DNA from: Phoronis australis
Lineage: Eukaryota; Animalia; Phoronida
Assembly: GCA_002633005.1 (NCBI GenBank)
Contig: NMRA01000105.1
Span: 536,010-600,009, forward strand
DNA: 64,000 nucleotides
Direction of reading: 5' to 3'
Positions 2,322-64,000 of the stretch are shown here, piece by piece; position 1 is the stretch's first letter; every line of letters starts with the position of its first letter. The position numbers were made by a program, and so were the translations under genes. The notes beneath the pieces are model-generated. The model searched no databases. It saw only the letters and a list, made by a program, of their open reading frames with translations, and was not told the DNA's origin.

Positions 2322-3203
2322 AGGGAAAGGCAACCTTTTTTCATGTCATTTTTAGCAAAAATAAGGTTCTTTGATTATCCCAGACATATTTTCACTTGAT
2401 TGCAGCTTTTCGTAATTTAATTAATTATTCGTCCTTTACTCCGGAATTGACGTTTTGGGAGGCAAGAATTTCGCGCCAATTTCTTTTCATGTAGTGTGAC
2501 TGTGAGAGCTGTCGAGTCAGTTATTGTTATACCTCGGCTGTGACAAGTTCGGTCGTCGCTTGCTTTCGTTTACGAGTCAGTCAACATGCCACATTGTTGC
2601 TGCGTACCGGGATGTACTCATTATCGCCCAGAGCCTGTAAGCAGCTCTGCTGCGATGTTGAGTAGAGGGAGTGAATACAGGCCCCGTTCGACACCCAGTG
2701 ACGAGAACACTTCGTCGTCCAATGAATAGATCGGTGAGAGAATTTTGATAAGTTTATTGAGGACTTTTCAAAAGTAATGGAGCTATTTAGAAGGTGCCAG
2801 GTGTGTGGCGAGGGAGTCACATGGCGGGATGTAAGTAGTTTGTGTGCTCAGGTCACTATCAAGTGGGAGTGTGTCGCGGGACACTCGGGCAAGTGGAACA
2901 ATTGTTCCTCTGTCCGTGAGACGATAACAGTGTGGCATGTTGACTGGCTCGTAAACAAAAGCGAACGACTACCAAACTAATCACAACAGAGGTAGAACAA
3001 TGATTGACTCTGCAGCTCTCACAGTAAGACTATGTGAAAAGAAATTGGCGCGAAATACTTGCCTCCCACAACGTCACTTCCGGAGTAAAGGACGAGTAAT
3101 TGTTTAAATTACAAAAAGCTGTAATTAAATGAAAAATATGTCTGGGATAATCAACGAACCTAATTTTTGCTAAAAATGACATGAAAAAAGGTTGCCTTCG
3201 CCT
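2322..3203 (+). mobile_element. Non-autonomous DNA transposon, Kolobok-like, internally deleted, with THAP-transposase relic
   Basis: About 190-bp imperfect TIRs (AGGGAAAGGCAACCTTTTTTCATGTCATTTTTAGC... / ...GCTAAAAATGACATGAAAAAAGGTTGCCTTCGCCT) flanked by TTAA at 2318-2321 and 3204-3207. Internal ATG at 2586 reads MPHCCCVPGC (THAP N-terminus). After a stop and frameshift: FDKFIEDFSKVMELFRRCQVCG...IKWECVAGHSGKW (CxxC...CxxGH zinc motif). Confidence 0.75.
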
Positions 3204-3262
3204 TTAAGCAAAACAAAACAATGTTAATTGTAAAAATAAATTATCATTTCTATTTTTACAGA

Positions 3263-21300: not shown

Positions 21301-24300
21301 AATCTGACTAAAAATTTGCATGTCTGTTGGTGAGATTTATTGTGATCAGATGGCATGCGCTTTGGGAATATTTTGTGCAAAAGATTTGCTATCTTCATCA
21401 ATAAATTTTGAGGCTCTCTTTTGGTCTTTTCATATTTTTGTGGTGGTTGCTTAGTCGTTTTCGCACCACAAAGCACATTATATTTTTCCAAACTTTCAGT
21501 TCTGGTGCTGCCCTCTAGTGACGAGTGATTTTGTGCCAAAAGTTTTGATTGGCCCTTTAGTCCTTGATTTTGACTTGTTACTTTACAAATTCATACTTAC
21601 CATAAGATAATGGTCATAAAAATTGATTTATGGTTGGATACAGATTTTCAGAAAACAAATTAAACAACATTGTTTAGAAAAATCCCAGAAGAAGCCTCTG
21701 CCAAAAATGGCCTACGCTTTTTAGTATTCAAACATTTTAATTAAACGTGTTGGCTTCTATGTTCTGTTTTACTATTGGTCTTTTTATGATGCTCTGTTTT
21801 ACTATTGGTCAGTTTTACGATGTTCTGTTTTACTATTGGTAAGTTTTACGATGTTGTGTTTTACTATTGGTCAGTTTTATGATGTTCTGTTTTACTAGTG
21901 GTCAGTTTCATGATATTCTGTTTTACTATTGGTCAGTTTTACGATGTTGTGTTTTACTATTGGTCAGTTTTATGATGTTCTGTTTTAGTATTGGTCTATT
22001 TTATGATGTTCTTTTTCACTATTGGTCAATTTTATGATTGGCAGGAGTGTAATGATGAAGTGGGCAAGTACTCGTGCTCATGTAAGGCAGGGTTCAAGCT
22101 TGCAGCAGACCTGCGGAATTGTGAGCCGGCCAGTCAATGCAGTGCAGAGCAACGAGCTGCGTGTGACGGAGGAAACAACCGCTCGGTCTGCGCCAACGAT
22201 GAAACCAACCAGGGTTTCTTATGCCAGTGCCCCAAGGGTTATGCTTTAAACTCGGAAAAACAATGCATTGGTAATTATAATGGCTTATGTGTTGTAATCA
22301 ACAAAATTAAGTCTCTTGTACTTGACTGCGTATGTTTCTATGGCAAGATTTGTTATGATGAACAGAATCCTATGTTGTCACCCTTACCGGCCGAGATTGA
22401 GGAACTCGAACGGTTTGCGTTCCTGGAAACCTGTCGCATTGGTCAAAGGCACCATGCTGTTGTACTTAATTATATCACCTCAGGCTGCTGATGTTATCGT
22501 TCACTAGATAATCAGCCCATCATAAACACTCAGGGGACAACAATAGTATTTTTGAATTTTCGAATTGAAAGCATTTAAATAGCACATGAATTTTGAATAC
22601 TTCGTGAAAAGTACACATGATTAGGTTTTTGAATTTTGAAAATCAGACAAGAACTGTGACTTACACAACCAAAAATTTTTGTACAATGTTGCCATATTAT
22701 GCTTCTCATTACTTATGCTGTTTATGCAACATTATCGGGCCAATTACCAAACCAAATATTTACACTCGACTCAACTTATTCCTTACAGAAGATTACAGCT
22801 AACCTTCTGGAGAATTTCTCCACAAGAGATTTACCATTTACTTTCTGCTCTTATCTATGTGGAATTCAGTTAATGTGACGGAAGTGTTTAAATTCTGTCT
22901 CCTCCTCAGAGAAGCTCCTGGAACCTGTTGTAGTTGATGCCAGCATCTGTGTGTTGTAGATATTGACGAGTGCTCAGCAGGTACTGCCCTCTGTAGGGCA
23001 TCGTCTAGCGAGTGCAAAAACAACGAAGGTAGCTACACTTGTGAGTGTAGGGCAGGATACAATCAGAGCTCAGATGGAAAGACATGTGAAGGTAATATTG
23101 ACAAACTGTCATAACCCTGGGTTTAATGATGTTTTTTGAAGTTGAGTCTGATTGATTGATTGATTGGTTGATTGATTTATTGTGTGTTATTAATGCATTT
23201 CATATTTTGTGTTTAGGTACACTGTTATTGTAAGGCCTATCCAGAGCTCTCAGCCATATTGATTGAATTGCCCTGGCTAAGCAATCCTAAATTAATAGAT
23301 TTCCTAAATTGACTTTCTTACTTTAATGCTTTACATTGTTGAGTATAGTAGCCTACTTTTATTCCACTTTGTTTCTTGGAATGCATTATGTTTTGCCGGT
23401 ATCCATGTGGTTTCCATATGTTCCTTGATTCTTTTTACAGAAAAATTTTAGACTTCAATTATGTCTACTCTCAGTTTCTTTGAACATTTGTGCAATATGT
23501 TCTTTTCTGAAACCGGATAAGTTGACCTTACAGATGATACAAAACGCCATGTACACAAAAGTTCAGTTTATCCTCAGATAAAAGTAAACAGGCTCTCCCC
23601 AGTATCAGCTGTCACCTTACTGAGCAGATGATCGCCTTCCCGACACTTCAGAAGCTCTGGAGTGAATGACTCCAATGCCACAGATTTATGCTCTAGGAGG
23701 TGCACACATAGGTCAATAATGATTAAGGTCGATTTGTAATTTGCAGACGTGGATGAATGTGCCAAAGCAGGTGGCACCAAGTGTGAGCAGACGTGTTCCA
23801 ATACAGTCGGCAGTTACATCTGCTCTTGTCAAAAGGGATACAGTCTCAACAGTGATGGCAAGACGTGCAACAGTAGGTGTCCTCAGCCATATTATTTAAA
23901 GCTGCATCTTGCCACGTTGAGCTGGCTAAAACGAATATGACTGTGACTTGAGTTGGTTATGGTAGTAAAAGGCATAATTTGATAAATGTGTTTTAGACAG
24001 CTAAACGGCAAAATGCAACTTTAATTTGTTAACCCTATTAAAGTTTAAAAATTTTCAAACATTTTGGCATTATGTATTTTAAATTACAAAGACATAAATG
24101 TCCCCCATTTACCCATTTACGAGCACTATAATTGATCACTGATACCTTCACAAAGATTAGGTTTCATGTTGAAATATGGGGAGCTGACAAGTGTAAGTAA
24201 ACAAAATAGTGTAAAGTTGCAGTTCTTGAAAACAGTGTGCTCTAGCTTTCGTCAATTCCAGATATTAACGAGTGTGCCAAAAGTGTTCTAAACAACTGCG

Positions 24301-42184: not shown

Positions 42185-45100
42185 CTAAGTAGTGGCCGCT
42201 TCATCACCAGAGGTAGCTTTGTCCCATCCAGAATTTGTCAAAAACCTGTAAAATCGAAAATGCGATAAATGCTAAGTATGATCCATCTTTAGTGTTTCGC
42301 AGAATCACAACCGTGAGCTTATACAGTTTGAGAGGAGAGTCTGCTCTGTTGAGACACACTCAGCACATAAGAACGTCTGCTCTGTTGAGACACACTCAGC
42401 ACATAAGAACGTCTGCTCTGTTGAGACACACTCAGCACATAAGAACGTCTGCTCTGTTGAGACACACTCAGCAAATAAGAACAGGTCATATCATCCAAAG
42501 CATTGAAAAAATGAATTTGCCAACTTGGAGTATCTTAGGTGCAAGCAGCCGAGACAGGTCTAAGTTGAACCTTCTATGAATATGTCACTCATTGTTTTGT
42601 CTAACTTAAAAACACTCTTTTTCTCATTTCAGTGAGCAAAATTTTATGGGATCTTTACCAAATGTAATTGTCTTTTTTCAGAATCCATCTTGTAATCGCT
42701 CTCTTACCGTCTTGATATATTCAGACAAAAGCGTGAAACACCAGACAGACTAAATGGGGCATCATGAACATATAATGGAGTTTTTCACATCAGTGATCCA
42801 TTCTTTAAGTTCTATTACCTTGTGATATTCTCCTCTAAATATGATATGTAGACCAGTTTAGTCTTCCAAGAGTCTGGTATGGCATTGTAACCTAGTCTAC
42901 AGCCAACCAGGGCGCCAGCAACAGCACTGTTGGTGTCGGCATCACCACCCTACAGAGAGAGACACAAGTCAGAACATTTCATTAAAGTACGGGTGAAGTA
43001 ACGACGTGCACAACCCAGTGAATACAATTTTTCCATCAGTGAGATACAAACCCGCCAATCAATCATCATATAGCACAATCACCACCAAGTGTCACTCAAA
43101 CTGCACCACAACAGACAAGCTACTTGCTCTTACGCTCATCTGCTGATTTTGAAGGCCAACTGCTTAATATTTTTGTATGGTAAAACAGTCCAAGCCACAA
43201 ACTACAAAGAGTGCACATACATTCAAGGCTGTCTATTATAAACTAACTTCCACCTCATAAGAAATTTAAAGCTGCAATAATGAACCATAACTTGTCACTA
43301 ACAATAGCTTAAGCAGATGACAAGTGATTTTGTGGCTTAAAAAGAACCGACAGTTCACTATTGCTTGAGATCATGCTCAGTGGATAAAATGACACGCAGT
43401 CACGCACAACAAAGTTGAAAGGATACCAAGCCTGGTTTTGGCCTATTAAAAAATACTACTAATGACTTTCTCATCCAGTTCATTCTCTAAAACAAAATAA
43501 TGCCCTGTAACCCCGGACAAGCTCAAATCTATGGAGGAAATTTTGAAAACTCCTTTCAAAGTCTACTACAGGGGCAAGCGTGGCCTACGATTTTAGTGAA
43601 TTACATAGCAACTAAGGGAAAAGACCACCTACCAAAGACCATGATGTACAATCTGTGACATTAGGGAGAATGAGTTTTAAGTTGATTCCTGCCTTAAACT
43701 TGGAAGATTGACACCAATGATGCATTAGCAAGTGACAAAACAAGGATTGGTGGAAATCATCAGAACAGGGTTAGTATACTTTTAACTTGTTGGTCTGGCT
43801 ATAAGTATTAATCACCTTCATTAACAAACGAGACCAATATTACAATCATGAAAATAAGTTAGCTTTTTGACAGAAGGTGGGTTTAGCAGCACACAGTCAT
43901 ACAAGAAGCTAGTTGAGTGTGACAAGAGCATGATTATTCAGTATTTGATGATAATGAATTTTAATTCAAATTGTGACTTTTAATCACTCAAAAAATCATA
44001 CGTGCATCCAGGGGAGCTCGGGGGCTTGAACGAGCCCCCCACTTGGCGAAGTGAGCAAAAAGGTCTGCCTCAGAGAAACAAAAACTCAAAAGTCCACTAC
44101 AAAGGTAGGAACTACCAAAACAAAATCAGCGAATGCACAATTCATAGCTGCTGCTCTGAAAATACCCCGTGAATCTTAGTAAAAGTCCACATTCTCAAAA
44201 ATTCGAGCTCTCCCTTTTTTAGGCTGAATGCGCCCATGCAAATATGGACTTATCAAAATTATCTACCGATTTGGACCACATAAACAGATAACGATGCGAC
44301 CAACTTCATCATTAATAGTACCCGGTATATTCATGAGCAAAATCTAGAAGCGGGTTGATATGCATGCAGTCACAGAAGTAACTTGCAGGAGTATTGAGTA
44401 AGTGGCAGTTACTGTATCCCCAGGTGAAGCAGACAATCATAATCAAAAGCAGATGACAATAACCACAAGCAGACAACCGTAATCACAACAGACGTTTTTG
44501 TGAACTATGTCACCCCTTCACACTATTCAAGTGGTCAAACCCAGCACTTTTTAAAGCACGGATTAGAAGAAGAAAATGATAACAAAGTATCCCACATTTC
44601 CTGCAATCTTACAAAACTTCCGCAGAGTTAATTCAATTACCGAAGCCTAAGTAACTTCCTGAAAGAAGTAACGGAACAAATTACAAAAAGAAAACAATTT
44701 GCAATTCCAGTTCCTTATCTTGGATATCCATAATTTCTAAATCATTGGAGAATCTTTTTGTGAGTGCTAAAACATTATTTAATGTAAATCTGTACTGTGG
44801 GTCAGAGGCCTACTTTCTTCAATAAACACAAAATCTCACCTATTTCTAACACAATATGCCAGTTGTGAATTTCTCATGTTTTCATATACAAGGCAAGTAG
44901 CACCACTGACAATACAATTTCTCATGTTTTCATATACAAGGCAAGCAGCACCACTGACAATACAATTTCTCATGTTTTCATATACAAGGCAAGTAGCACC
45001 ACTGACAATACAATTTCTCATGTTTTCATATACAAGGCAAGCAGCACCACTGACAATACAATTTCTCATGTTTTCATATACAAGGCAAGTAGCACCACTG

Positions 45101-45814
45101 ACAATACAATTTTCAAGCTCTGCACCACGGCTACCTCATCAAACAATATTTGTGGACATTCCCAACAATGTTTTAACCCTTGAAATATAAAAAGGACAAT
45201 CTTCGGAATTATGTTTTGTCTAAAACTAGTGAGGTTTTATTATATTTCAGCAATTTTATAAAAGAAATATTGCAGCAAGAACGTTTTTTCTTAAAGTTAT
45301 GTAGGACCCAAGGAAAATGCGAAATTTTGGCGAACTTTGGAACATTTAATCTCTCCGTCAAACATTGTAGATCATGCTTATATGAAACCTTCACACACCG
45401 TGCTTTATGCACTGTTCTCCAATACGCTGTAAAAAGGAATTAATTTTAAAGTTTTCCAATTTTGCATGAGGGGCTATAAAAACGGAATTTTATGATTTTC
45501 ACGAAATTAGTCCAGAATTGTAGAAAACAAAATGATAATTTTAAACTGAAACAACATTTTTGAGATTTCATTTTGAACGCTTCAACTAAATTTGATTGTG
45601 TTATCGATGCTGTTGTTTTGGTATCAATCATTTTTGCTAAATTTAACAAAAAGGCATGGTCACCTGCCCAATTAATGATTGATTGTAAAAAATAAGGTAC
45701 AAAATCAAATTATACAGGCTTTTTACTTTCAAAAAAATTGAATTAAAATCTATACAACGGCAACAACCTCAGTATTGGATACAAAGTCAATGGCCCACAG
45801 GTTCCATTTTACAC

Positions 45815-45847
<33 letters not shown>

Positions 45848-48800
45848 TACAGGTACGCTGCAAAATAGGCTACCTAAACTTGGACTAGTTGTAGCAGGTT
45901 ACAATGATAACAATTCACCACAACACATTTCCAGTTTATGTATAAAGACAAAAGTTTCGCGTTCAATTGTTTTGTGAATATTGCTTCTAAACGAGCCTGA
46001 TTGGACAAAATTTGCAATCTGCCAGATGAAAATTGCTCCTCAGATCACCAAGTACAGGGCATACGAAAAGAACATGAAACTCTATTTCATCTTCCACCAC
46101 ACTACAAATCTGGCGTAATATAAATCTGGCATACTTTTCAGATATTTCGCTAAATACACAGACATGTCCATAAGGTTACATAACTTTAAAAGGCCAGATT
46201 CACACCACCAAACCAGCGACTAGTACATACCTCCTTGACTAGTTTCTCCATAATATATCGGAAGTTGGCATGTTTAGTGGTTTTATTCAGAGCCCAGAAT
46301 CCTGCCCCCAAAGTCTTGTAGGTGTATCCAATCAAGCCGTGGCCACTCAACTTAAGATCAACGAGTTTCTTAGGAAACATGTGCTGTCTCAGCTCTTCTT
46401 TCTAAAGTAAACCACAAAAATTCTGAACAATTTCACTCGAAATACAATCCTAAGAGATGAGTTGAACACAGAGATCTTGCATTACCAAAATCATGATAGT
46501 TTCCTTGGAGTCCCTATGACCAAACAACCTCTAAGAAACATACTTCATTTCAAGTTTCTTTCATTTAGTAAATAAAGTATAATGACATTAACCACAGAAC
46601 ACTAACTTTCCATACTGGCCGAGTAACACTTAAGTCTGACTTAAGTATTACTCCGGTATGAGCTACATTAATGAGCTACACAAAAATTATTATGAAAGTT
46701 AGCAAAGTCTAGTCTTGCGACTTTTGATAAAACAGACCCCATGCTCTCAGTATCAAACATAACACTGTTCAATGACGATTTTGACCTCATGCAAAAGCAG
46801 AGATATTCAAGAAACTTAACAATGGAAATGTGTACAGTCCAGTCCACTAAGGGGGTCGATACCCACCTCTTCATCTGTTTGTAAGAAGTTGCAGGCGTAT
46901 TCGTAACTCTTCATGGAGATAGCTTGCACATCTATCTTTTGTTTGTTCAACACGCACTGCAGCATCATAGCTATGGCTGTTGTCACGGCAACACAAGATG
47001 CTACGCACCTGAAATGCAGCAGAAAGCGTTCAAGAAAATTTTCAAGCAATAAATGCATACCATAACACAAACTCTTTCCTCATATTACCTTTCTATCACA
47101 CTAAAGTCTGTGTCATATGTGTTTCAAAATGAGGTGAATTCTAAATAATTTTTACGGCATCAAGGTTAACAGTGTGAATATCATCACTTAGCAGTCCCAA
47201 GCACAACTTAAAAATTAATAAATCCTATTTTTTAAAAACACCACTGTGTTTTTCTTGTGCAACTGCACAAGCCATTTCTAAAAAGTTACTGCTATTTGTT
47301 CAACCCAGTACTTCCCTTCTTTTAACAAAATTGGATTTTACAAATTACAGTACCTTAGAAAATCGTCAGTTTGGAAAGGCAAACTAACTCAAAATTTTAC
47401 AAAACTTTCTCTCAGGTATCATCTGCACCATGTACACCATACTTGCAACAAAGTAAAAATGTTTCACAAGTTATTTTTGGTTGAGAAAATTGACAAAATT
47501 AAAGTCCATTTGTAAACCATTTTGTGTACCGAGCTAACAAAATCTTAAGCACAATCTACCCAAAACACCAGCAGCCAAAAGGCACATGCGTATGAACACT
47601 ACTTTCAGTTAGTAATACTTAGATAAAAATGATTTCCCACGACATAACCAGCTTTACAATAAAAAATACATTTTTGGGACTACTGTTGAATTCGATAGAT
47701 TTCTTAAAGTTATTAGTTTTGAACTAAGCTATAACACACTTATAAAATTCACTGCTTTTGCAATTTTATTAGTACAAATCATTAATTCTTGCCAACGTCT
47801 GCCAGGCATTCACTGAAATCAAGACCAGTGACTTATGCCAAGAATTGTACAGAGACACTCAGCTTACCTCAAAATCCAACTGCACAATTAATGGGGAACA
47901 TATTATTGGAGCATTAAACTGACGTTTTAGGTTGTAAAAGTCACGTTTCTTGTCCAATTTTCAAAATTCAAAAAACTAATTACGTGGCTGCGCTTTTCAT
48001 GAACTATTCAAATTTGTTATTTACAAGCTTTCGAAAATTTGAAGATACTAATGTCATCCCCAATGTGTTTATGGTGGTCTCATTATCTACAGAAAGATAA
48101 AATCAGCAGTCTGAGGCAATTCAATTTTAATTACCACAACAGCACGATGTCGTTCATCTGAACCACCAGATTCTGTGGTGCGCAAATTAGTTGACCTGTT
48201 AGGGTGCCAACGTAGGAGTCTTTTCATGTTAGACAGTTGAAAATGTTTAGAATACTCTTCCATTTATTGAGTGAGGTTTAGCTCTGCAGGCAGAATGTAA
48301 AACTAGCTCGTTAAGGTTAAGCCCGATTCCGCTGCTGATCTCAAAATACACCTTAATATTGTTGGAATAATTGTTTTTATTCTCAGAATGCAGTCTCTGT
48401 TAAGATATGCGAATCAGATGAAAATGCAATTTATCATGTTAATTTATTTAAATTAAAATCAATCAGTGTTACATTTTAGATCCAAAATATTGATAGCCAC
48501 TGAATACAGCAACAGAAATGCACGAATTTAATCCACAGAATTGTGCAAAACGTACTTTGTAAAAGACAGTGCTACTTCCAACTAACAAGTTTTAAAAACC
48601 CATTTCCTCAAAAACGATTCTGTCAGAACATACACTGGCATTTAGATAACCTTCTATTGTCAAAACTAGACTTTTCTCAATTTTATAATGACTAATAATA
48701 CTGCCAACACCACGACATAAATTTGATAAAACTGCAACATAAACATTGCTCACCACTCTACATAGTACTTGTTCCTCTATATCTGTGTCTAAATATAGTA

Positions 48801-51800
48801 AAACAATCATTGTTCAAAATTATGGGGGTGTCTAGTGAAAACCCATAAGCCTTCAACAGGCATGTGACTGTTATATGATATGAAAGAAATTATAGAATCA
48901 CAGGGACCATGTTAAACCTATTTCCACATCAATTAAAAATATTAATTTAAAGCCTGTGAAAATTATACTTGACAGTTTGGAACTAGAGCCCTCTAACAGG
49001 AAGGTGTCACAAGGGTAAAAAGACTTAAAGCAATTATTTTTAGAACATCCCCTTAAACCTATGTAACCGCATAATAACACAGGGCTGCAAAAGGCAGATA
49101 AGACCAGGAATTACGAATGGAGGAAATGAATTGGAAAACAAGGGAAAGTCCTAGATGAAGACAATTAGACTATAAATATCGGCGAAGATCATATTGACAG
49201 CTATTCACATCCAAGGAGTGGAGTCTACACATCACAATGGCTTACAAGGTAAGTGATATTTGCAATCAAAAATCTAAGAGTTAGATTGAACATACAAAAA
49301 CATGAAATTTGAAAAAAAACACACTTTTTTGTTTAGTAAGAGAAAGCATATTTATTGAATAGTGAAAATTGCTTGTTTTACATTCTCAGCAGAAGCTGTG
49401 CCACTTACTAATGGTGAACTAATAATAGAATATTACATCTTTAGTTTCATTTTAGTGGTTCTGTCAATTGCTTTGAAATACTATTTTATACTTTTCCAGT
49501 GAAGATTATTTTCAGTCAAATAATTATTTGATGAATTTTAGCAGTTACTGCCAACTGAAAAACCAAAATAAGCTGAAATGAAAATTTTTAAAAAATCCCT
49601 TGTCAACTGGCATGACTCACAAAACATTTGTGGCAAACCTGAGGCCATTCGAAAGAAGTGATCTGATTCAAAGCATTTATTATTACTACTACATTGATTT
49701 CTTATTTTTTAATAATTCTTCTGGTCAAGAAATTTTGCAGACTAGTAGAATTCATCACACTATGAAACTTTGGTTATAGTCAGCTATGGCGTGCCCGCAC
49801 TTCGAGAACCAGTTTTCTCCAAAGAATAACAAGGCATCAAAATGTAGGCACCTTACATGTATATCTGACTACTGCCAAAATTTCAAAACATTTTCATTAC
49901 TTTCAGTCTGACTGACATGCCATCTGTTGGTCAGACTGATACGTGATGGGACTGTCACTTTTGCAAAATACCGGTTTTGGCTACTTGAGGCAATGCTGGT
50001 GAGACGTGACGACAGGGATGTAATTCATGAGACAAATCCTATGCTAACATTTGGGGTTTTTTTACCCCAACGCCCAAGCGAGCCTAAGCCAAACTGTGAC
50101 TAAACCGTCATGATCGATTCACAAATTCTTGCTCATTGCTCAGCCACGATGGCGAAGAAAATCTAATATTAACTTCTCTCGATTTTAAAAATTCAAAGAC
50201 AGCTAATATTTATTTTTCAATTTTAAAAACAGTCACATTGGTATTTTGCCTTACTTATTGTACGGTTTTTGACTTTGAAACTCATATGCTAAACAGCCGT
50301 GTTGGTTTACGACCACAATAATCTCATCCAGCACATTCAACCAAGCCCATGCAATAGCAAGTATCTCCATTCCATCCACGACGGTGCCATCAAAGCTTTG
50401 ATGTGCCGAGCACTTCGCTGGATACTCTGGGGTAAACGGTGCACACTTTTTCGTCTACTTGCATGCAAATCTCGTAGCCAGTGACTGCATGGTGGTGATT
50501 TCATCCTCAATCAAAAAGGCACAAGGACCTTTCTCCTCCTCAGGAGAAAAAGGGCCCTGAATTTGTTTCACTCTCTCTCTAATACAATACTTATGATGCT
50601 GTTTTTCAGACTATTCAATTGGTGATCTTCACCCTGGTCCATTCTGTGGTCATCATAACCGCCACTCCCTGCCAAATGCCGGACGCCGTACGTCCATGCC
50701 TACGTCCACCCCTGGATCGTCTGGTCAAACAACTTGCAGCCAACCGCAACAATGACCCACTCCAAGAATCCTTCGCAAATGTTCCACCATTTGGTGCAGA
50801 AATACAGAATTTCCTCAACAGTCAAGAAATGGATGTGAGCAAAAACGTCACCATTCCTTTTGAGCTCAGTGACTCCACATGTCCGAGTGGGTACGACAGG
50901 ACACCGCAGCAGATGGTAGATCTCAGAGAACGCAGTCACTGTCCTTGGTACTTACAAGTGAACTCTGATGATATGAGAATCCCCAGGATATTAATAAATG
51001 CTAAATGCAAATGCGACCATTGTCTGGGTTTAGGAAATTCCAACGAGTGCGAGCTAGTTACGCGTCGAGTTCCTGTTCTGAGACAAAGGCACGAGTGTGA
51101 TCAAGATGGGTACTACAAGTATACAGAGTCTTGGGAAACTATCGGGGTCGGGTGTACTTGTGCCTTTCCCAATCGATCAATAGGAGACACTGGATCAGAG
51201 TCTGAGACCACAAGCAGTGGAGATGGGCCCCAAATGGCCACGCTTTGAAGACATAAATAACAGACTATTAGATATTTATTTTTTGTATGGAGTTTTACTG
51301 AGGTGATACAAAGTGACATGAAACTATTAATCCGTCACAAGATATCAATATTTTTAGAGTATTGTTTTATATTATACAATCAATTCTACAAAATGTCATA
51401 TCACAGTGAAAGAATTATATATTTATGTTGCAAAATATCACTACTTTTAGGGTTTTTTAAATTACTTAAAGATAAGCATGTTAAGAAAACTATTAAATTT
51501 ATGACAACAATAAAATGCAAACTGTCTATATCGCTTATTTATCCTAACAAGCACCTAGGAGAATGACCAGAGACTGAGTCATAACTTTGCAGGTTCTCTT
51601 CATGCTTCATAGCAGTGACATCTAGTGGACAGGTGAAAATGTCAAGAATCATCAATTTCAAACTAAAATAATCGAGTTTTCATTCAACAACTAGAACTGT
51701 CTCAAAGAAACATTACGTCACCTGATGTGGCCAACAGGTGACGCGCAGATCAGACTTAAAAATGTTTGTGATCAAAATTTCCACACTGGTTCAAGATTTA

Positions 51801-54800
51801 GATAATTTTATGTTTCCAGGAAACTTTGGATGTTTTGAAGGTGGTGCTGTACGTGGCTTAAAGGTGTAACTCCCCAAACTTTGTGTGAAAAGATAGAATT
51901 TAGTGTGAAAAGAACAGTCCACTTTTTCACCAGAAGCTAATACATGAACAACAGAATTCTCACAAGCACCATGTAATTAAGTTTTGTTCCACTGAGATGT
52001 TACTTATGGGACCTGGTTGTTTGTTGAGTGTTATTTGTTCTGCTGCAGTTGTATTACTTTAAAGTATTTTGAGAAAGTCTGATGATCGAATTAGCCAACG
52101 ACGTCTAGACGACATTGACCTACCTTTTGAACTGTCCATGTCAGAGGGCACTGTTGAAGTAGTGCGGTAGGTGAATACGGAAAACAATATCACATGGCCG
52201 TGTTGCATTCGACTGACTCAACTCATATGGGATAAAAGACAGTACAGTTCTTGAATTCTTCAACAGAAGCATTTAGGGATTAAAAAACATTACCATGCTC
52301 CTCCGATCTAAATTATTGCTCTCTGACTGAGCTGGCATCTCAACACACAGGCAATGCGTACATGTGCAATTATCAAAAGTGCAAATTTTGGGTTGACCAA
52401 CCAACCCCCAATTGGAGTGTTTTCTTTTGATGATTTTGATTTTCTCATTGGTAAGGAATCCTATAATAATGAGTATAAAGAGTGAAATGCTGAATTGGCC
52501 ATTTTCGTTTTAAGCCACCTAAACAGGGCGAGGCCGTCCCTGCTTTGACTGGAATATATACTTCCAACACAATCACACCCACCTACCTAGGATCATGATG
52601 ACTAGTCTTGCATATCGCCACAGTATTCTGAATGACCTGGTCAAGGTTCTTAAACTGGTGTATACCAAGAATGGACGTCCTCATGACACCACCATTGGGG
52701 GCCGGATACATGTTGGCACATTCACCCATTTCCCTCCATACAGTCTCAGCCCACTGCAATACAGCTTATTACATAATACCAAACTCAAATTAAATGACCA
52801 ATTAAGAAACCGGGCCGTTCAGTGGTGGTTGTAGTCTGACTATGCTTCTCTACATCAACCAGTGTGGCCGTCTGCCCTTGATATCTCAGTTGATCTGAAC
52901 TCCTTTTGTGGGGTACAAAGCAATTATCGCATTAGCGATGTATGCAGGACAATAAAAAACTGGCTGAAATAAATAGAAGTGTCAAGGACAGAAACTGGTA
53001 ATTTAACATGTTTGGCTTCAGAAATGGTTGAATTCCTTGTGAAAGGTTAAGTGTAGAACCCTTCTTTCATAGAAGAAATATGATAAAAATTAGCCAAAAC
53101 CCTGTGATGGGTTTTGATTTCTTGACAACAGTTTTGAGTTGATGTGTGTTTACATTAATGTATTCATTCAGCCTGAGCGAGGTAGATAATTAGCGTTTGC
53201 CTTGTGACGGCAGACAAAAGAACGAGCCTGGCACTTAACAAAAGAAGGATAGAAATCAGGCCGCTAAAAACCAGTGTCATCTCGAATACCGACTAAACGA
53301 GAGTAAGTCGTAATGTGTGTTTCAACGTGGCTCCATGGAAGTGGAAGTTCACCTCTCTTACCACTGAAGGAATGAACATAGTATAGTCTTCTAATGCAAG
53401 TACAATAACCCATGGGTTTCCAATGGAAAAAGCCCACATTCTGCCACAATTCAACAATCCAGCCTAGACAACTGATCACTTCATTATAGTTACAATACAA
53501 GGTAATTGGATACACTCGCTACCAAGGGTTGCACTTCTTGAAATATCTTAAAATAAAAGCCATAAGCCCAGGAAACCATATACTGTAAAATTCTTCAACT
53601 TGGGACAAAAAGAATTTTTACAATTGCCATGTTTCTATAATTATTCTTCAGAGGTTTACCACATCATTGCAAATGCTCAAAATTTTACCAAATGCCGTCT
53701 GCTACAGATACAAACCATGGTAAACGCAAAGTAAATTTTCCAGAAAAGTTATTTTTGTTGAGAAATTTGACAAAATGTAATTGCGCCTGTCTGCCATATT
53801 GTGTCCCAAACTGAAGAATTTTACATCATTTTTCAAATGCTTGATGATCACATAAATCTACTTTGGGGATGAAAATAATGCCCTGATTGTGTTTTTTCTT
53901 AAAAAACCCTGAGGTACAGAAATTCTACCAAAAAGGTTAAACAGTTTTTGAAAATTTGAAAGGAACCAGTTTTCTGGATTAACACATACCAAATGGGGAT
54001 CCTCTTCATAGCTTCGACAGCTGAGTACTTTTAATGTCGTAGCTCCAATACCCATGCCTCCTTGGTCCTCACACTCAGGGATACCTTCCTTTCTCCACTT
54101 GTTCAAACGCTTTGCGAAATCTAATACGTCAATCTGGAAAAGGCATGCAACATAACTGATATCCAGTAAACACATGATAGCGTGTCTTGTTTTAAAAGTA
54201 GCAAAGCGTACATGAGTAAGCTGATCTCAAGTTACAATCATTAATTGGTCGATACATACTACATAGAATGAGGACAACCAATCCCAGCATTAAAGTCATC
54301 CCCCATGGTGTTTATTATAAAAAATCGTCAGGTATTGCCGCTCGTTTTCCCGTGATTTATGGTATGACAAAGAATGGCACAGCATTGCATTTGCAATGGT
54401 TGTGACAACTCCGTATTTGAGCACGCTGTGGCTCTTTTGATGAGGGACATCAAAGAAGCACTAATATGGCTCAAGTTTGTACAAGAAACTAACATGTTGG
54501 TGGACACTCATGTCGTAGAGCTAAGAAACTTTCAACTCAAGTCGCCTTTCTTCTATTCCCTCGTTTATGGGATATTAAATTAACGATTGCGGTATGCAGA
54601 GCTATGAATGTATGTTTTATGATGCTGACAATGTGGTCACTGGTCAAAACAGGGTAAATAGTGATTTTAAGCACTTTAGTATTTTGTACACAGGGAGCAC
54701 AAGAAGGCCACTATCCCATTTTCAAACAAGATTTAACCTTTTGACCTCCGTCTATAATCATCCTACCTTCCCACAGTGCTCAGCAACTGACTGCATTATC

Positions 54801-57581
54801 AATATCATCTGGTCTGAGTCATCCGTCCAATCTCCATCCTTCCAACGAGCGCGGTGCATGTCCGGCACTTTCATACTGTATTCCAGATGTTTCTTACCGT
54901 AGTACTATCAAGATAAACAGAGATTCCAGTAATGAAACAAGGTTTTATCACCTCATGACAGCAGTGAGGCTTAACAAATAGCTTCAAGTCACTCAAAAAT
55001 GCTGTTTAAAATAGTCACTGAGTCACTCATATCAGCACTGACTCTAAGAGTTGTAAATCAGAGAATTTTGTACAAAAATGACAAAATAAATGTAACTTTT
55101 TAAGTCAGACATGCATTTGAAAATCCATATACCAATTACAGGTACTGTTCAAATACTTTGCCCACAGAGGCAACTTATTTTATAGACAGGAATGAATTCT
55201 GAGACAATTTGGAACCTTTGACCAATCAACGGTCAAGAGTCCAAAATCCTCATTATGCCAATCTCTAAACTTGGTCATCTTGCACTAAGTCTGGACCCTT
55301 TTCTCATGTACCCATTTTCTAAAAGGGGTCCATAGGGCCTGATAATCACCATAGCAATTTCCTCCTTCACCATAAATTCTGTTAACAACCCAATGGCATC
55401 ACCGACGCAGTTTCCATAGATCGTGCCATAGACGTGGTCTTTGAGTTCCTAGAAATAAAATACAGAGAAATCTGGAGTCTTAGTTGAATGTCAATTGTAT
55501 TTAGTATGGGACAACAATTTAACTTGCTTTTGAGGCCCAAGTGTGAGTCCTATTTCACAGCATGACATCAAGTACATGATACAAAGCAATTCTTGCTCAT
55601 CTCATGTGATCAGTACGGCTTAAAGCTGCAATTCCCATTGTTTAGCCGACTAAAAAACCAAAATTAAATAAAGCCTTAAATTCTCATAAAATCAATCTTA
55701 TAAATTCCTTACAGTTGTACGATCTGATGTTCTTGTTGGAAAGTTACGGAATTACTAGTAGAATCTTACCAAGATTTCCGTTTTTCTGTTCGTAAAACAG
55801 GGCAAAATGCAGCTTTACAGACAACTTAAAAATGATACACATACCAGAGGCGGATCCAGGATTTTGAGTTGGGAGGAGGGCAAGGGGAGAGTGTTTGCCA
55901 GTATTTTGACTGTCAGACATTCACACTCCCTAACTGCCAAACGGAATCTGGGAGAATTTTACGGGCATATCGAGCACTGATTCGAACTCTCAATATCAAC
56001 AACTTTAAGACACTTTTAATTACTACAGATCTGAGCCAAAGATAACTTCATCAGCAATCAACCACTGAAGGAATAACGTATATAAAACAAACACAATAGC
56101 CCACTGAATTTAGAGTCCTTAGTCTGAGTCAGGGTAATAAATCTGTGAAAGCCATTACGAAAACCAGGGTTTCAACTCCAGATGACAGTGATTTCCAAAC
56201 CGAGACTAAATTGCAACCTAGTCAATTGTTGAGTATTCCCGTGGTCTTCTGTCTGGCATTGACAGCTTTTGGTTGCTTTTAGTAAATCTTCAAACCATGG
56301 TAGATTGTTTGCCAGTGGGTTGTCATGGTGATGCCGGGTGAAATAGTACAGGAAGGTTGATGTTCAACGATGGTCCAGATTCACATCTGGACTAGCCACA
56401 GTTTAGAAACCACTGTTGTCTGGAGTTGAAACCCAATGGGAGGTTTTTGTAATGATTAAAGTTAGAAGGTTTAACAAAGCATGATGGAATTTGGTACTAA
56501 ACTTAATGGTAAACAACTCAGTAGCAACAAAAGCTTTAAACCTAAAATTTCCAGAATAACTTAGATGGATTTTTCATTATTGAAAATTAGTGAACCAGAT
56601 TTTCAATGGCATCCGAAAGACTTTGAGTTGCTGCCTGCTGAAAGTTTACATTTCGTTAGACAAGAGCTCAATTAAATGTAGTAAATCAGTTAAACTTCTC
56701 TGTCCCCTTTTGAATAAGGACAGCAAGATGAAATTATACCAGACTTTTGTTAAATCTCACTTCACTCAATGTCCTTCAGATGGCACTTGTGTGGTGAGCA
56801 AAAATCTAAGAAAGCCTATAGCACAGAGCATTGAAGTTTGTATTTGACGAGTCCTAAGAGACCGGAACTAACATCATCTACTTCATTCTCAAACAAAAGC
56901 TGATCCACTTGTAACATGGAGATTTAAATGTTTAAAACCTCTGAAGATTACAAGCTTATATTTAGAAATACAAGACCATGTCCACTTAACTCTAAGTTTA
57001 AAATTGAAGAGTCAGATAAGTAAATGCACTTGCTATAACTGGCACTTCAAAACTTCCTTATTGGTCTCAATTTTATGTGCTACTATAGGTTGCAAACTAT
57101 ATGAAACAAAGTGGACTAATGATGTGAAAGCTACCGCTGAGCTTTCACATTTTCTCCACGGGTTTAGTGCCTTATCTGTGTTGAATGTGTAAGACATGCA
57201 TTAGGTCAGAGAGTGTCAGTTTCTACTGCCAAGTAGAGATGATGGCACTGTCTACCATTAGAGTGACCATGCACCGTCTCTAGCTGGTCCCAATAGAGAC
57301 CGTGAAGCTCCTATATCTCAGAAGCCTTTCAGAGAATTATGCCTCACACTGACTAAAACGTCAGCCACATTAATTGTTATAAGTACTTTTTGCGGATAGA
57401 GGGACACCTTTAGGAGACCGCCAATGTCTTCAATTCCTTACACAGTACTAAGGATGATATCCATATTATATCTACAAGTTCAAAGGTCTTCTATTTTCAG
57501 AAGGCCGTAATTGTGGAATTTTTCCATTGAAAATTGGCAGCTGTTTCTTACCGGGTCCATTGCTACATCATTTCTAGCCAT
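42185..57581 (-). CDS. ADP-ribosylglycohydrolase family protein (DraG/ARH fold), 360 aa
   Basis: 9 phase-consistent GT-AG exons: 57581-57552, 55448-55350, 54904-54767, 54133-53990, 52753-52587, 47008-46867, 46401-46231, 42949-42819, 42245-42185 (1083 nt). Family motifs GNCVGDAIGLLTEF, GDWTDDSDQ, APNGGVMRTS, SHHDPRC, GGDADTNSAVAGAL. Confidence 0.9.
42339..42482. repeat. 36-bp minisatellite x4 in the last intron of the hydrolase gene
   Basis: Unit gtctgctctgttgagacacactcagcacataagaac. Confidence 0.9.
43997..44238 (-). mobile_element. Same repeat family as 6441-6715 (copy 3, inverted)
   Basis: gggagctcgggggcttgaacgagccccc...gcaaaaaggtctgcctcag...aaaagtccac is the reverse complement of the 6441 copy; ends tgcgcccatg. 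Confidence 0.7.
44868..45112. repeat. 48-bp minisatellite x5
   Basis: Unit aatttctcatgttttcatatacaaggcaagyagcaccactgacaatac, with alternating T/C variant. Confidence 0.92.
49142..49178 (+). promoter_or_regulatory. IL-17 core promoter: kB-like site and TATA box
   Basis: GGGAAAGTCC at 49142-49151 (its reverse complement contains the GGACTTTCC core of the Ig-kB site). TATAAATA at 49171-49178, about 60 bp upstream of ATG 49237. Confidence 0.6.
49237..51248 (+). CDS. IL17: Interleukin-17-like cytokine, 216 aa
   Basis: Exon 1 49237-49248 (MAYK|gtaagt) plus exon 2 50610-51248 (tttttcag|ACT). Signal peptide MAYKTIQLVIFTLVHSVVIITA. IL-17 cystine-knot motifs RSHCPW...RIPRILINAKCKCDHC...CELV...VPVLR...C...Y...WETIGVGCTC. 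Confidence 0.92.
51249..51514 (+). promoter_or_regulatory. IL-17 3'UTR with AU-rich elements and poly(A) signal
   Basis: ATTTA at 51274, 51421 and 51497 in very AT-rich context; AATAAA at 51509-51514. Confidence 0.5.
53581..53826. mobile_element. MITE related to 32071-32378
   Basis: TIRs tactgtaaaattcttcaacttgggaca / tgtcccaaactgaagaattttaca. Internal part resembles 47390-47530. Confidence 0.6.
56153..56454. mobile_element. MITE
   Basis: TIRs gggtttcaactccagatgacagtgatttccaaac / gtttagaaaccactgttgtctggagttgaaaccc, extended by cattacgaaaacc / ggtttttgtaatg. Confidence 0.65.
56640..56850 (+). mobile_element. Degraded non-LTR retrotransposon (CR1/L2-like) RT C-terminal fragment
   Basis: Frameshifted KMKLYQTFVKSHFTQCP / WHLCG / RALKFVF matches the LYxxFxxxHxxYCxxVWHxC...RALRF pattern of CR1/L2 ORF2. 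Confidence 0.6.
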
Positions 57582-57801
57582 AACGTATTATGATTCCGGA
57601 TCTTGAAAAATGCCAGCCAAGTGAGAGCTGTAGAGACTGCATGTATGGTCACACTTCAAATGCACTATATCTTCAGTTAGATTCTTGAAGAAATGTGGGC
57701 GAAGTTTCTGCGTGAATGTCAAAAATCGGGCGGATGACCTCCTTGAGTCAATATTTGTATTTAATAAACACTGAAAATAAACTTACGGATTCACTTTGTT
57801 A

Positions 57802-61075: not shown

Positions 61076-61493
61076 TGCTGTGTGTGAACTTGGAATCCTG
61101 CTTAATCTCAGGATCGCGTATGCGTGAACCTGGAATTGAGTATTCTTTTAAAAGGCAAACAGGTGAAAAGAATTTTTGTAATTATTGGCCTCGTGATCAA
61201 CCATTTTCTCCTTTACCATAACTTATGTCGCTGAACCGGAGGAATATGTGAATGGCTAAATCGATTATTGTTCGGTGAAACTGATCGCTCGTATTTGAAA
61301 AGGTGGTTAAAATTGACGTAACTTTATTCCGCAAATGTAACTAATTGATTTAGTGCAGTGCAAATTTTTATGAACATGAACATGATTATTTGAGTGAACT
61401 TTTCAAGTTGCCTCGCGTATTCCAAGTTCACCCAACACTCACTTCCGCTTAATCTTGAGATTAAAGCAGGAGATTCAAAGTTCACGTACAGCA
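61076..61493. mobile_element. 418-bp MITE with TG...CA ends and 4-bp TSD
   Basis: TIRs tgctgtgtgtgaacttggaatc / gattcaaagttcacgtacagca. TSD GAGG on both sides. Empty site gcggataGAGGgacacc at about 57392. Confidence 0.8.
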
Positions 61494-61669
61494 GAGGGAC
61501 ACCATTATTGTGAGGAGACCGCGGATGTCTTCAATTCCTAACACAGTAGTAAGACTGATATCCATAATATCTATAGGTTCAAACGTGTTTCCATTTTCCG
61601 CATTCTTTGGGGTTAATGGACCGTACATGTGGACATTTTCTGCGCTGAAAATTGGCAGCTGTTTCTTAC

Positions 61670-61699
61670 CGGGTCCATTGCTACATCATTTCCAGCCAT
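61670..61699 (-). CDS. Duplicate first coding exon of the ADP-ribosylglycohydrolase gene (copy 2)
   Basis: ATG...CCG|gtaaga encodes MAGNDVAMDP, phase 0. Lies within a diverged duplicate of 57222-57790. Confidence 0.6.
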
Positions 61700-61951
61700 A
61701 ACGTATTCTGTTTCCGGATCTTAAAAAACGTCAGGCTGGCAAGTGAGTGAGTGCTGTAGAGACTGTATGGCCACACTTCAAATCCACTATATCTTCAGTT
61801 AGATTCTTGAAGAAATGTGGGCGAGAAGCAATTCGTGAACTGAAGTTTCTGTGTGAACGTCAAATATCGGGGCCGATAACCCACTTGAGTCAATATTTAT
61901 ATTTAGCCAAATGAAAATAAAACTTCCGGATAGACTCGAGCATTCACCAAC

Positions 61952-62681: not shown

Positions 62682-62776
62682 NNNNNNNNNNNNNNNNNNN
62701 NNNNNNNNNNNNNNNNNNNNNNNNNNNNNNNNNNNNNNNNNNNNNNNNNNNNNNNNNNNNNNNNNNNNNNNNNNNN
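62682..62776. other. Assembly gap
   Basis: Run of N. Confidence 1.
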
Positions 62777-63235
62777 TCATTATTTATGCTACCCTGGCAC
62801 AGTGGGGTATGACGTCATCAGCGGGTGAAACGACAAAACCTTTTTTAAAAATCTCTTTTAACTAAGTTGGAGTTTTGCGTTTTCTCATTGGGTTCATTTT
62901 TGGACTCTTGCGAACGTTAGTTAGTTTGCGTTTGCGAGAAGACAACACGTGTTCTCTCGCGAACGTGACCCCGTTCGCGAGAACAACGCCGGTCCTCTCG
63001 CGAACGTGAGTTCATTGGCGGACATCTTGGATCGAGGAAAAACGCTCGGGAGGCGAACATAATTTGTCGCGTATCTTCTCAAATGTTGTAGATTTCACGA
63101 AAAAGTGTGAGTAGAGTGGCGCGCGTGATCCATAAGAGTGGGTAATTGTATATTGCGACACTTCATTTTATTTTTTAAGTATTCCTGACAGAATTTGAAA
63201 TGGGACCAACTTATCCGACTATTACCGTTTCTTAC

Positions 63236-63271
63236 CGGGTCCATTGGCATTGCTACATCATTTCCAGCCAT
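63236..63271 (-). CDS. Duplicate first coding exon of the ADP-ribosylglycohydrolase gene (copy 3)
   Basis: Encodes MAGNDVAMPMDP|gtaaga (6-bp in-frame insertion), phase 0. 63228-64000 duplicates 61662-62459. Confidence 0.5.
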
Positions 63272-64000
63272 AACGTATTCTGTTTCCCTTGAAAAAGTGA
63301 GTGCTGTAGAGACTGTATGGCCACACTTCAAATCCACTATATCTTCAGTTAGATTCTTGAAGAAATGTAGGCGAGAAGCAGTTCGTGAACTGGAGTTTCT
63401 GTGTGAACGTCAAATATCAGGGCCGATAACCCACTTGAGTCAATATTTATATTTAGTCAACTGAAAATAAAACTTCCGGATAGACTCGAGCATTCACCAA
63501 CAGGTGACACTGAAAAACACCCTTTCTCCGCGGAGAAAACCTTGGCCGCTACGGAAAAACCTTTCCGCCTCGGAGAAAACTTTTTTCCGCCAAAAAAATG
63601 TTGCCGCTTCTCCGCGGAGAATTTTTGTGGCATCGGAAAGGTTTTCTCTGTGGAGAAATCCGTAATGTTATTTTTTCAAAGTCACCTTTCTTCTCAGTCA
63701 AGTTTCCGGATTTCGAAAAGCTAGAAAGCTAATCTTTCTGGGTTTCAGAGTACTTTCACTCGCAATTTTGCTCATTGGAGCGCTTTTCACTCTTCAAAAA
63801 TCTTAGGCTCCTTCTTGGTAATCTGCGTCGGTATAACGGCTGCATTGCGGTCAAACACACTTCCTCCTTCAGTTTGCAACCAGCCGACTCGACCGACACA
63901 GTTTAGATCATTTCTTAATTCACTAAACGCATTATCCATTCCTCAACGTGAGTACCTTCTGACCGTCAAACCTAAGACGATGCTGTGTAGTCAAATATTA

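What the first reader, a model, noticed from the sequence alone, without database searches (positions are those of the whole stretch)
47009..52586. Interleukin-17 gene nested antisense inside intron 5 of an ADP-ribosylglycohydrolase gene
Seen: the complete IL-17-like unit (promoter about 49140, exons 49237-49248 and 50610-51248, poly(A) signal 51509) lies on the + strand within the 5.6-kb intron separating hydrolase exons ...SHHDP-R (52587) and CVASC... (47008). This is the host's largest intron in the model. Knowledge: IL-17s are rapidly induced epithelial immune cytokines in invertebrates, and ADP-ribosylation is used by both bacterial toxins and host immunity. Inference: a possible coupled locus in which cytokine induction interferes with, or is co-regulated with, a de-ADP-ribosylating enzyme, next to a barrier mucin gene. 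It could equally be a neutral insertion of a mobile IL-17 paralogue.
Basis: partly seen in the sequence, partly recalled or inferred. Interest (0 to 1): 0.75.

Follow-up and report, generated by a model that had tools for sequence, protein, structure and literature searches.

The report
Ordinary nested IL-17 inside enzyme intron
In this invertebrate an expressed IL-17 immune-signal gene sits backwards inside an intron of an expressed ADP-ribose-hydrolase-family gene, and it is most likely an ordinary, independently controlled gene-in-a-gene rather than a coupled immune switch.

Summary
The nesting is real. RNA reads splice the minus-strand host across the whole 5,578-nt intron 5 (3, 7 and 30 reads in three runs, plus a contig of a second study). 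They also splice the plus-strand IL-17 intron (3 and 3 reads). Host-strand pre-mRNA reads cross the IL-17 unit in these runs too, so the nesting is not an assembly artefact. The IL-17 is a standard two-exon invertebrate IL-17 (Pfam, PDB, fold, TATA box, kB-like site). The host belongs to a widespread invertebrate DraG/Tri1-like hydrolase clade of untested substrate. Gaps in two mussel protein models suggest that the host intron is older than the insertion. No coupling is shown: both genes are lowly expressed and rank the same way across three runs (n=3), which shows no interference and proves no co-regulation. Antisense nesting of a short gene in a long intron is the common pattern in animals, and such pairs are usually uncorrelated. 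Conservation in related genomes could not be tested. Verdict: real, ordinary, low interest.

The parts
57552..57581 (-). Host hydrolase exon 1 (coding part, 10 codons)
   Evidence: ATG and GT donor; joint 55447/57551 in 1, 6 and 9 reads
55350..55448 (-). Host exon 2 (GDAIG and TEF motifs)
54767..54904 (-). Host exon 3 (TDD metal-binding motif)
53990..54133 (-). Host exon 4
   Evidence: joints; mussel isoform P0101 lacks this segment
52587..52753 (-). Host exon 5
   Evidence: Pfam ADP_ribosyl_GH 27.1 bits, cut-off 26.2; joints
47009..52586 (-). Host intron 5, 5,578 nt, GT-AG, phase 2; holds the IL-17 gene and interspersed-repeat fragments
   Evidence: skip of 5,578 in an X1 contig and 3/7/30 reads; host-strand intronic depth 0.42-0.62
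46867..47008 (-). Host exon 6
46231..46401 (-). Host exon 7
42818..42949 (-). Host exon 8 (DADT metal-binding motif)
   Evidence: loose ends at 46230 match its start in an X1 contig and 7 and 12 reads; NCBIfam DraG/Tri1 partial hits
   Evidence: best of 25 candidates, E 0.041; 119 of 120 homologues continue past exon 8
49143..49177 (+). IL-17 core promoter: kB-like 9-mer (49143-49151) and TATA box (49171)
   Evidence: both motifs together in 18 of 2,000 shuffles; no strict 10-mer kB site in intron 5; consensus recalled
49237..49248 (+). IL-17 exon 1, coding part (4 codons)
   Evidence: joint 49246/50608
49249..50609 (+). IL-17 intron, 1,361 nt, GT-AG, phase 0
   Evidence: 3 reads in X2 and 3 in X4
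50610..51248 (+). IL-17 exon 2, coding part (rest of signal peptide and IL-17 domain)
   Evidence: Pfam IL17 E 3.1e-16; PDB IL-17A hits; fold
51249..51514 (+). IL-17 3' UTR with three ATTTA motifs and AATAAA at 51509
   Evidence: depth ends by bin 51463-51693

Best explanation
An expressed two-exon IL-17 gene lies antisense inside intron 5 of an expressed DraG/Tri1-like hydrolase gene, and it likely arrived as a DNA-level copy that landed in a pre-existing intron and is likely run independently from its own promoter. Shown: the host polymerase transcribes the minus strand through the IL-17 unit, the whole 5.6 kb is spliced out, and the IL-17 is transcribed and spliced on the plus strand. Inferred: the opposite orientation keeps the IL-17 splice sites and poly(A) signal invisible to the host transcript, so the insertion is tolerated. 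Also inferred: the TATA box, kB-like site and AU-rich 3' UTR make it an inducible, secreted cytokine gene like other invertebrate IL-17s, and any polymerase collisions have little effect because both genes are weakly transcribed.
For: Splice joints and strand. Host-strand depth over the IL-17 unit is 0.36/0.13/0.70 against 0.55/0.65/0.56 elsewhere in the intron, with zero opposite-strand depth in host exon bins, so it is not strand leak. The IL-17 keeps the family's tiny-first-exon layout (sea urchin SpIL17-1 exon 1 encodes two residues, PMC5457136 passages; two exons are the commonest layout in mussel, PMC8353272), so it is not a retrocopy. Mussel models P0101 and P0121 lack segments matching host exon 4 exactly and exon 5 to within 3 codons, so intron 5 is probably old. 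None of 33 mussel IL-17 rows lists an ADP-ribosylglycohydrolase neighbour, and IL-17 synteny is not kept across phyla. In Drosophila 9.5% of genes are in nested structures, 71% of nested genes lie on the opposite strand, and pairs correlate no more than random pairs (PMC3814207). Nesting typically arises by short duplicates entering long introns (PMC5174743 abstract).
Against: Both genes rank X2<X3<X4 (host joints 13.6/17.7/79.9 and IL-17 depth 2.6/4.2/7.8 per billion letters), which shared regulation would also give; the same order has a 1-in-6 chance. No transposon ends or target-site repeats mark the insertion, so the route is inferred. Conservation in close relatives is untested: no genome is held, and the 80 metagenome loci were unspliced. 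The mussel table lists flanking genes and might omit host genes. The old-intron argument rests on two predicted protein models, not on DNA.
Confidence: 0.75

Rival explanations
1. Passive co-regulation: the kB-like element and open chromatin of the IL-17 promoter also act as an intronic enhancer for the host, so both rise together in stimulated or epithelial tissue.
For: Same rank order in three runs, with the host about 5-fold and IL-17 about 3-fold higher in X4 than in X2. A kB-like site lies inside the host intron.
Against: n=3, one study, conditions unknown, low counts; tissue mix or library make-up would give the same pattern. Nested pairs are generally not co-expressed.
Confidence: 0.13
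2. Selected interference switch: acute IL-17 induction blocks host elongation by convergent transcription, lowering a de-ADP-ribosylating enzyme so that ADP-ribose marks persist early in inflammation.
For: The geometry allows collisions, and both strands are transcribed over the same DNA. Interference between nested genes is a recognised effect (PMC5174743 abstract).
Against: The run with most IL-17 also has most spliced host mRNA and no drop in host-strand reads over the unit. In flies interference is reported as selected against, not exploited. The host's substrate and immune role are unknown. No challenged sample is known to be among the runs, so the test is weak.
Confidence: 0.08
3. Artefact or private arrangement: the IL-17 was misassembled into the intron, or the IL-17 reads come from a near-identical paralogue elsewhere.
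For: No long read spans the intron. The X1 IL-17 contig differs at 14 of 594 letters, against 8 letters in the host contigs, so a close paralogue may exist.
Against: Host-strand reads lie over the IL-17 promoter, intron, exon 2 and flanks, and carry the same variant letters as the IL-17-strand reads of the same run (50680 in X2; 50636, 50692 and 50711 in X4). 60 of 84, 75 of 103 and 149 of 231 laid reads are 99% or more alike. There is no N gap in the intron.
Confidence: 0.04

Closest known systems
Opposite-strand nested protein-coding genes (Drosophila and mammalian surveys: PMC3814207, PMC5174743, PMC8467205)
   Same: Short, one-intron gene from a duplicating family, on the opposite strand in a long intron of a multi-exon host.
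   Different: I found no IL-17/ADP-ribosylglycohydrolase pair in the searches run; the pairing itself looks unreported.
Invertebrate IL-17 genes (sea urchin SpIL17-1, PMC5457136; mussel IL17-1 to -23, PMC8353272)
   Same: Tiny first coding exon, IL-17 domain in exon 2, hydrophobic N-terminus, CPW motif, cystine-knot cysteines; best named hits are from Lingula, Ridgeia, Paralvinella and Liolophura.
   Different: A single copy in this 64-kb window rather than a tandem array; intronic; induction by bacteria not tested.
DraG/Tri1-like ADP-ribosylglycohydrolases (Pfam PF03747; invertebrate 'YegU-like/Tri1-like' clade)
   Same: 47% identity over 338 aa to Haliotis P0002, up to 56% to Lingula P0072; TEF, TDD and DADT residues kept.
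   Different: The homologue P0002 scores far below the DraG and Tri1 equivalog cut-offs (64 vs 337 and 53 vs 490 bits). Human ARH3 and ARH1 are more distant than the prokaryotic structures. Substrate unknown.

Membership tests
Nested (intronic) gene pair | Inner gene lies wholly inside one intron that the host really splices | tested here: met
   5,578-nt joint in 4 of 4 runs; IL-17 unit 49.14-51.53 kb lies inside 47009-52586
Nested (intronic) gene pair | Inner gene is its own transcription unit | tested here: met
   Opposite-strand reads and its own splice joint in 2 of 3 raw runs
IL-17 family | Pfam IL17 domain above the curated cut-off | tested here: met
   60 bits against 24, E 3.1e-16
IL-17 family | Four cystine-knot cysteines and the IL-17 fold | tested here: met
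   C137, C142, C186 and C188 align to IL-17A cysteines (that these are the knot cysteines is recalled); model pLDDT 82.9; every listed Foldseek hit is an entry of the IL-17 family
IL-17 family | Signal peptide and secretion | tested here: inconclusive
   Hydrophobic N-terminal stretch; no signal-peptide predictor or assay
IL-17 family | Dimer signalling through SEFIR-domain receptors; induction on challenge | not testable with these tools
   Sample conditions unknown; no receptor in hand
ADP-ribosylglycohydrolase family (PF03747) | Pfam domain | tested here: met
   Exon 5 alone passes the cut-off; all 120 listed homologues carry PF03747
ADP-ribosylglycohydrolase family (PF03747) | Metal-binding acidic residues | tested here: met
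   E34, D71, D72, D300 and D302 match 115, 118, 109, 118 and 118 of 120 homologues and align with DraG and Tri1
DraG/Tri1 arginine-ADP-ribose hydrolases | Third catalytic Asp (DraG D97; triad listed in PMC8120803) and equivalog score | tested here: inconclusive
   The Tri1 and Lmo0067 alignments put the Asp on a Gly (G117, 117 of 120 homologues); the DraG alignment puts it on an earlier Glu. P0002 is below both cut-offs
Retrocopy | Loss of parental introns | tested here: not met
   The IL-17 keeps a spliced intron after codon 4
Transposon-carried gene | Terminal repeats or target-site duplication around the unit | tested here: not met
   Only short, imperfect two-copy repeats in intron 5
Functionally coupled sense-antisense pair | Reproducible (anti)correlation on stimulus and conserved arrangement | tested here: inconclusive
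   Three runs with the same rank order; conservation untestable

The most novel reading that the evidence does not exclude
The nesting is a selected cis-circuit: the kB-driven IL-17 promoter sets the output of an uncharacterised invertebrate ADP-ribose eraser, by shared enhancer or by polymerase collision at peak induction, linking cytokine release to ADP-ribosylation state. The host may also choose among three duplicated promoter/exon-1 modules.
Probability: 0.1. Interest if true: 0.6.

Novelty: new member of a known kind. Interest (0 to 1): 0.2.

Why it matters
As it stands it is an annotation point: an IL-17 with a 12-nt first coding exon hidden antisense in another gene's intron is easy to miss in IL-17 repertoire counts, and unstranded RNA-seq would mix the two signals. 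If coupling were shown, it would be a direct genomic link between an invertebrate cytokine and ADP-ribose removal, and it would give a first biological context to a large untested hydrolase clade. The locus is a convenient test of whether an inducible nested gene disturbs its host.

Tried and rejected
No whole genome is held, so paralogue counts and synteny could not be done. The metagenome scan with the host alignment covered 43 of 64 parts, confirmed 536 stretches and kept the best 80; none of the 80 showed a spliced pattern (one had two whole copies) and an IL-17 profile hit none of them, so it says nothing on conservation. The host tree (41 rows, quick search only) places the host among animal homologues with no well-supported neighbour. 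Repeat search for transposon ends around the IL-17: only chance-level repeats. Rfam on 42000-62600: 0 matches. A second IL-17 in the window: none. Strict 10-mer kB site in intron 5: none; AP-1, CRE and C/EBP patterns in 48601-49236: none. The bacterial promoter scan does not apply. No RNA holder was listed as on record; the evidence comes from laying the reads. Literature searches gave no paper on an intron-nested IL-17 or on this pair, judged from listings only; the library lacks most subscription papers. Look-ups of earlier findings 29, 33, 55 and 56 returned nothing.
Full report
Observation. The window holds a minus-strand gene with coding exons at 57581-57552, 55448-55350, 54904-54767, 54133-53990, 52753-52587, 47008-46867, 46401-46231 and from 42949; all seven introns are GT-AG (2103, 445, 633, 1236, 5578, 465, 3281 nt). 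The spliced frame is open for 341 codons and is 47% identical over 338 residues to a Haliotis ADP-ribosylglycohydrolase (P0002, E 4e-105). Inside intron 5, on the plus strand, a 12-nt coding exon (49237-49248) and a 639-nt exon (50610-51248) give a 216-aa protein.

RNA evidence. No genome is held. One contig run (X1, guessed to be RNA, second study) and three raw RNA runs with the same species label (X2-X4, one study, about 18-19% of each read) were laid on the locus. The 5,578-nt skip is seen in an X1 contig and in 3, 7 and 30 reads. The other host joints within the laid stretch are seen too, and loose ends join exon 7 to exon 8. The IL-17 intron is skipped in 3 reads of X2 and 3 of X4, on the opposite strand; none is listed for X3. 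Host exon bins have zero opposite-strand depth, so the libraries are cleanly stranded. Host-strand reads nevertheless lie across intron 5, including the IL-17 promoter, intron and exon 2, at mean depth 0.36/0.13/0.70 over the IL-17 unit against 0.55/0.65/0.56 elsewhere (these are only a few fragments). They share variant letters with the IL-17-strand reads of the same run. No long read spans the intron.

The inner gene. It scores 60 bits on Pfam IL17 (cut-off 24) and matches 22 PDB sequences, 21 IL-17A and one IL-25. It folds at pLDDT 82.9, and every listed Foldseek hit is an entry of the IL-17 family. It has a hydrophobic N-terminus and the CPW motif described for invertebrate IL-17s (PMC8353272 supplement). 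Of ten top homologues looked up, the named clusters are Lingula, Ridgeia, Paralvinella and Liolophura, which points to a lophotrochozoan. A kB-like 9-mer (49143-49151) sits 20 nt before a TATA box (49171). Both motifs occur together in 18 of 2,000 shuffles of the 200 nt before the ATG, and the kB-like motif alone in 200 of 2,000. No strict 10-mer site exists in the intron. These consensus patterns are recalled. The 3' UTR has three ATTTA motifs and AATAAA at 51509. A tiny first coding exon is the family's normal layout: sea urchin SpIL17-1 exon 1 encodes two residues (PMC5457136, abstract and passages), and two exons are the commonest layout in mussel (PMC8353272, passages). It is therefore not a retrocopy, and no transposon ends flank it.

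The host. A search with P0002 gave 1,135 proteins at E 1e-20 or better among 7,997 scored candidates; the 120 listed come mostly from molluscs, cnidarians, nemerteans, annelids, a brachiopod, hemichordates and echinoderms. The metal-binding residues E34, D71, D72, D300 and D302 are shared with 115, 118, 109, 118 and 118 of those 120. The nearest solved structures are prokaryotic (MJ1187, Tri1, DraG); human ARH3 and ARH1 score lower. P0002 falls far below the DraG and Tri1 equivalog cut-offs. The third catalytic Asp of DraG (triad given in PMC8120803, passages) aligns to a Gly in two alignments and to an earlier Glu in another. The enzyme is likely active, but its substrate is unknown, so reversal of bacterial toxin marks is not supported.

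Order of events. Of 120 homologues, five have a gap of 15 or more residues against the host. Mussel P0101 lacks exactly exon 4, mussel P0121 lacks exon 5 from its first residue to within 3 codons of intron 5, and P0119 stops matching at intron 7; the other two are N-terminal truncations, at 58 and 71, which match no intron. About 16% of positions lie within 3 residues of an intron, so five matching ends are unlikely by chance, but these are predicted models, not DNA. I infer that intron 5 is old. None of the 33 mussel IL-17 rows lists such a hydrolase as a neighbour (the table gives flanking genes and could omit a host), and IL-17 synteny is not kept between phyla. The simplest history is a DNA-level IL-17 copy entering an existing intron of about 3.2 kb. 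Conservation in relatives was not testable: the 80 metagenome loci kept were unspliced and had no IL-17.

Coupling. Per billion letters read, host joints number 13.6, 17.7 and 79.9 and IL-17 exon depth is 2.6, 4.2 and 7.8 in X2, X3 and X4. The order is the same. That shows no interference in bulk, and it would fit shared regulation, but three samples of unknown tissue and treatment give that order one time in six. In Drosophila, 9.5% of genes are in nested structures, 71% of nested genes are on the opposite strand, hosts have long introns, and pair correlations equal those of random pairs (PMC3814207: abstract, passages and section 4). Nesting typically arises by short duplicates entering long introns, with interference selected against (PMC5174743 and PMC8467205, abstracts only). 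This locus fits that default in every respect tested. The neighbouring plus-strand gene (TSP1, NIDO, VWD and EGF domains) is mucin-like by its domains; by my reading of the sequence it ends near 36.15 kb, about 6 kb from the host's likely last exon, and nothing links it to the pair.

Verdict. A real, expressed, antisense nested IL-17 gene: a new member of a known kind. Searches (listings only) found no report of the pair; subscription papers and most supplements were not visible and could hold one. Independent passenger 0.75, passive co-regulation 0.13, selected interference 0.08, artefact 0.04. Interest 0.2.

Noticed in passing
window 57398-57790, 61493-61931, 63227-63481 (ATGs at 57581, 61699, 63271, minus strand): The host's promoter/exon-1 block occurs three times (76-83% identical), each with an ATG and an intact GT donor in frame with exon 2; these could be tandem alternative first exons. 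Only the nearest copy lay inside the stretch laid with reads; 6 X4 reads showed a variant joint at 55447/57552. An N gap (62682-62776) lies between the two upstream copies.
   Followed up: partly
window 50712-51304, run X1: The X1 IL-17 contig differs at 14 of 594 letters; of 11 listed coding changes 7 alter the protein, against 2 of 8 for the host. Either a fast-evolving allele or a close paralogue.
   Followed up: partly
window about 4200-36150, plus strand: Large mucin-like membrane-protein gene (Thr/Ser-rich region, TSP1, NIDO, VWD, many EGF-Ca domains, a hydrophobic segment near 34.7 kb), convergent with the hydrolase.
   Followed up: partly
window 47878-48141 and 22455-22722; 54219-54625 and 1350-1777: Interspersed repeat fragments (72-73% identical, inverted) shared between host introns and other parts of the window; reads from other copies pile up at several places in intron 5.
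   Followed up: no
window 2317-2598 and 2926-3208: A 283-nt inverted repeat pair, 88% identical, resembling a non-autonomous DNA transposon.
   Followed up: no
window 44868-45112 and 42339-42482: Near-perfect tandem repeats (48 nt x 5.1 and 36 nt x 4) in host intron 7 and the putative intron 8.
   Followed up: no
P0002-P0121: This hydrolase clade is multi-copy in several molluscs (Haliotis, Sinanodonta, Mytilus) and has no solved animal structure among the hits; most members carry Gly where Tri1 has a catalytic Asp in one alignment.
   Followed up: partly
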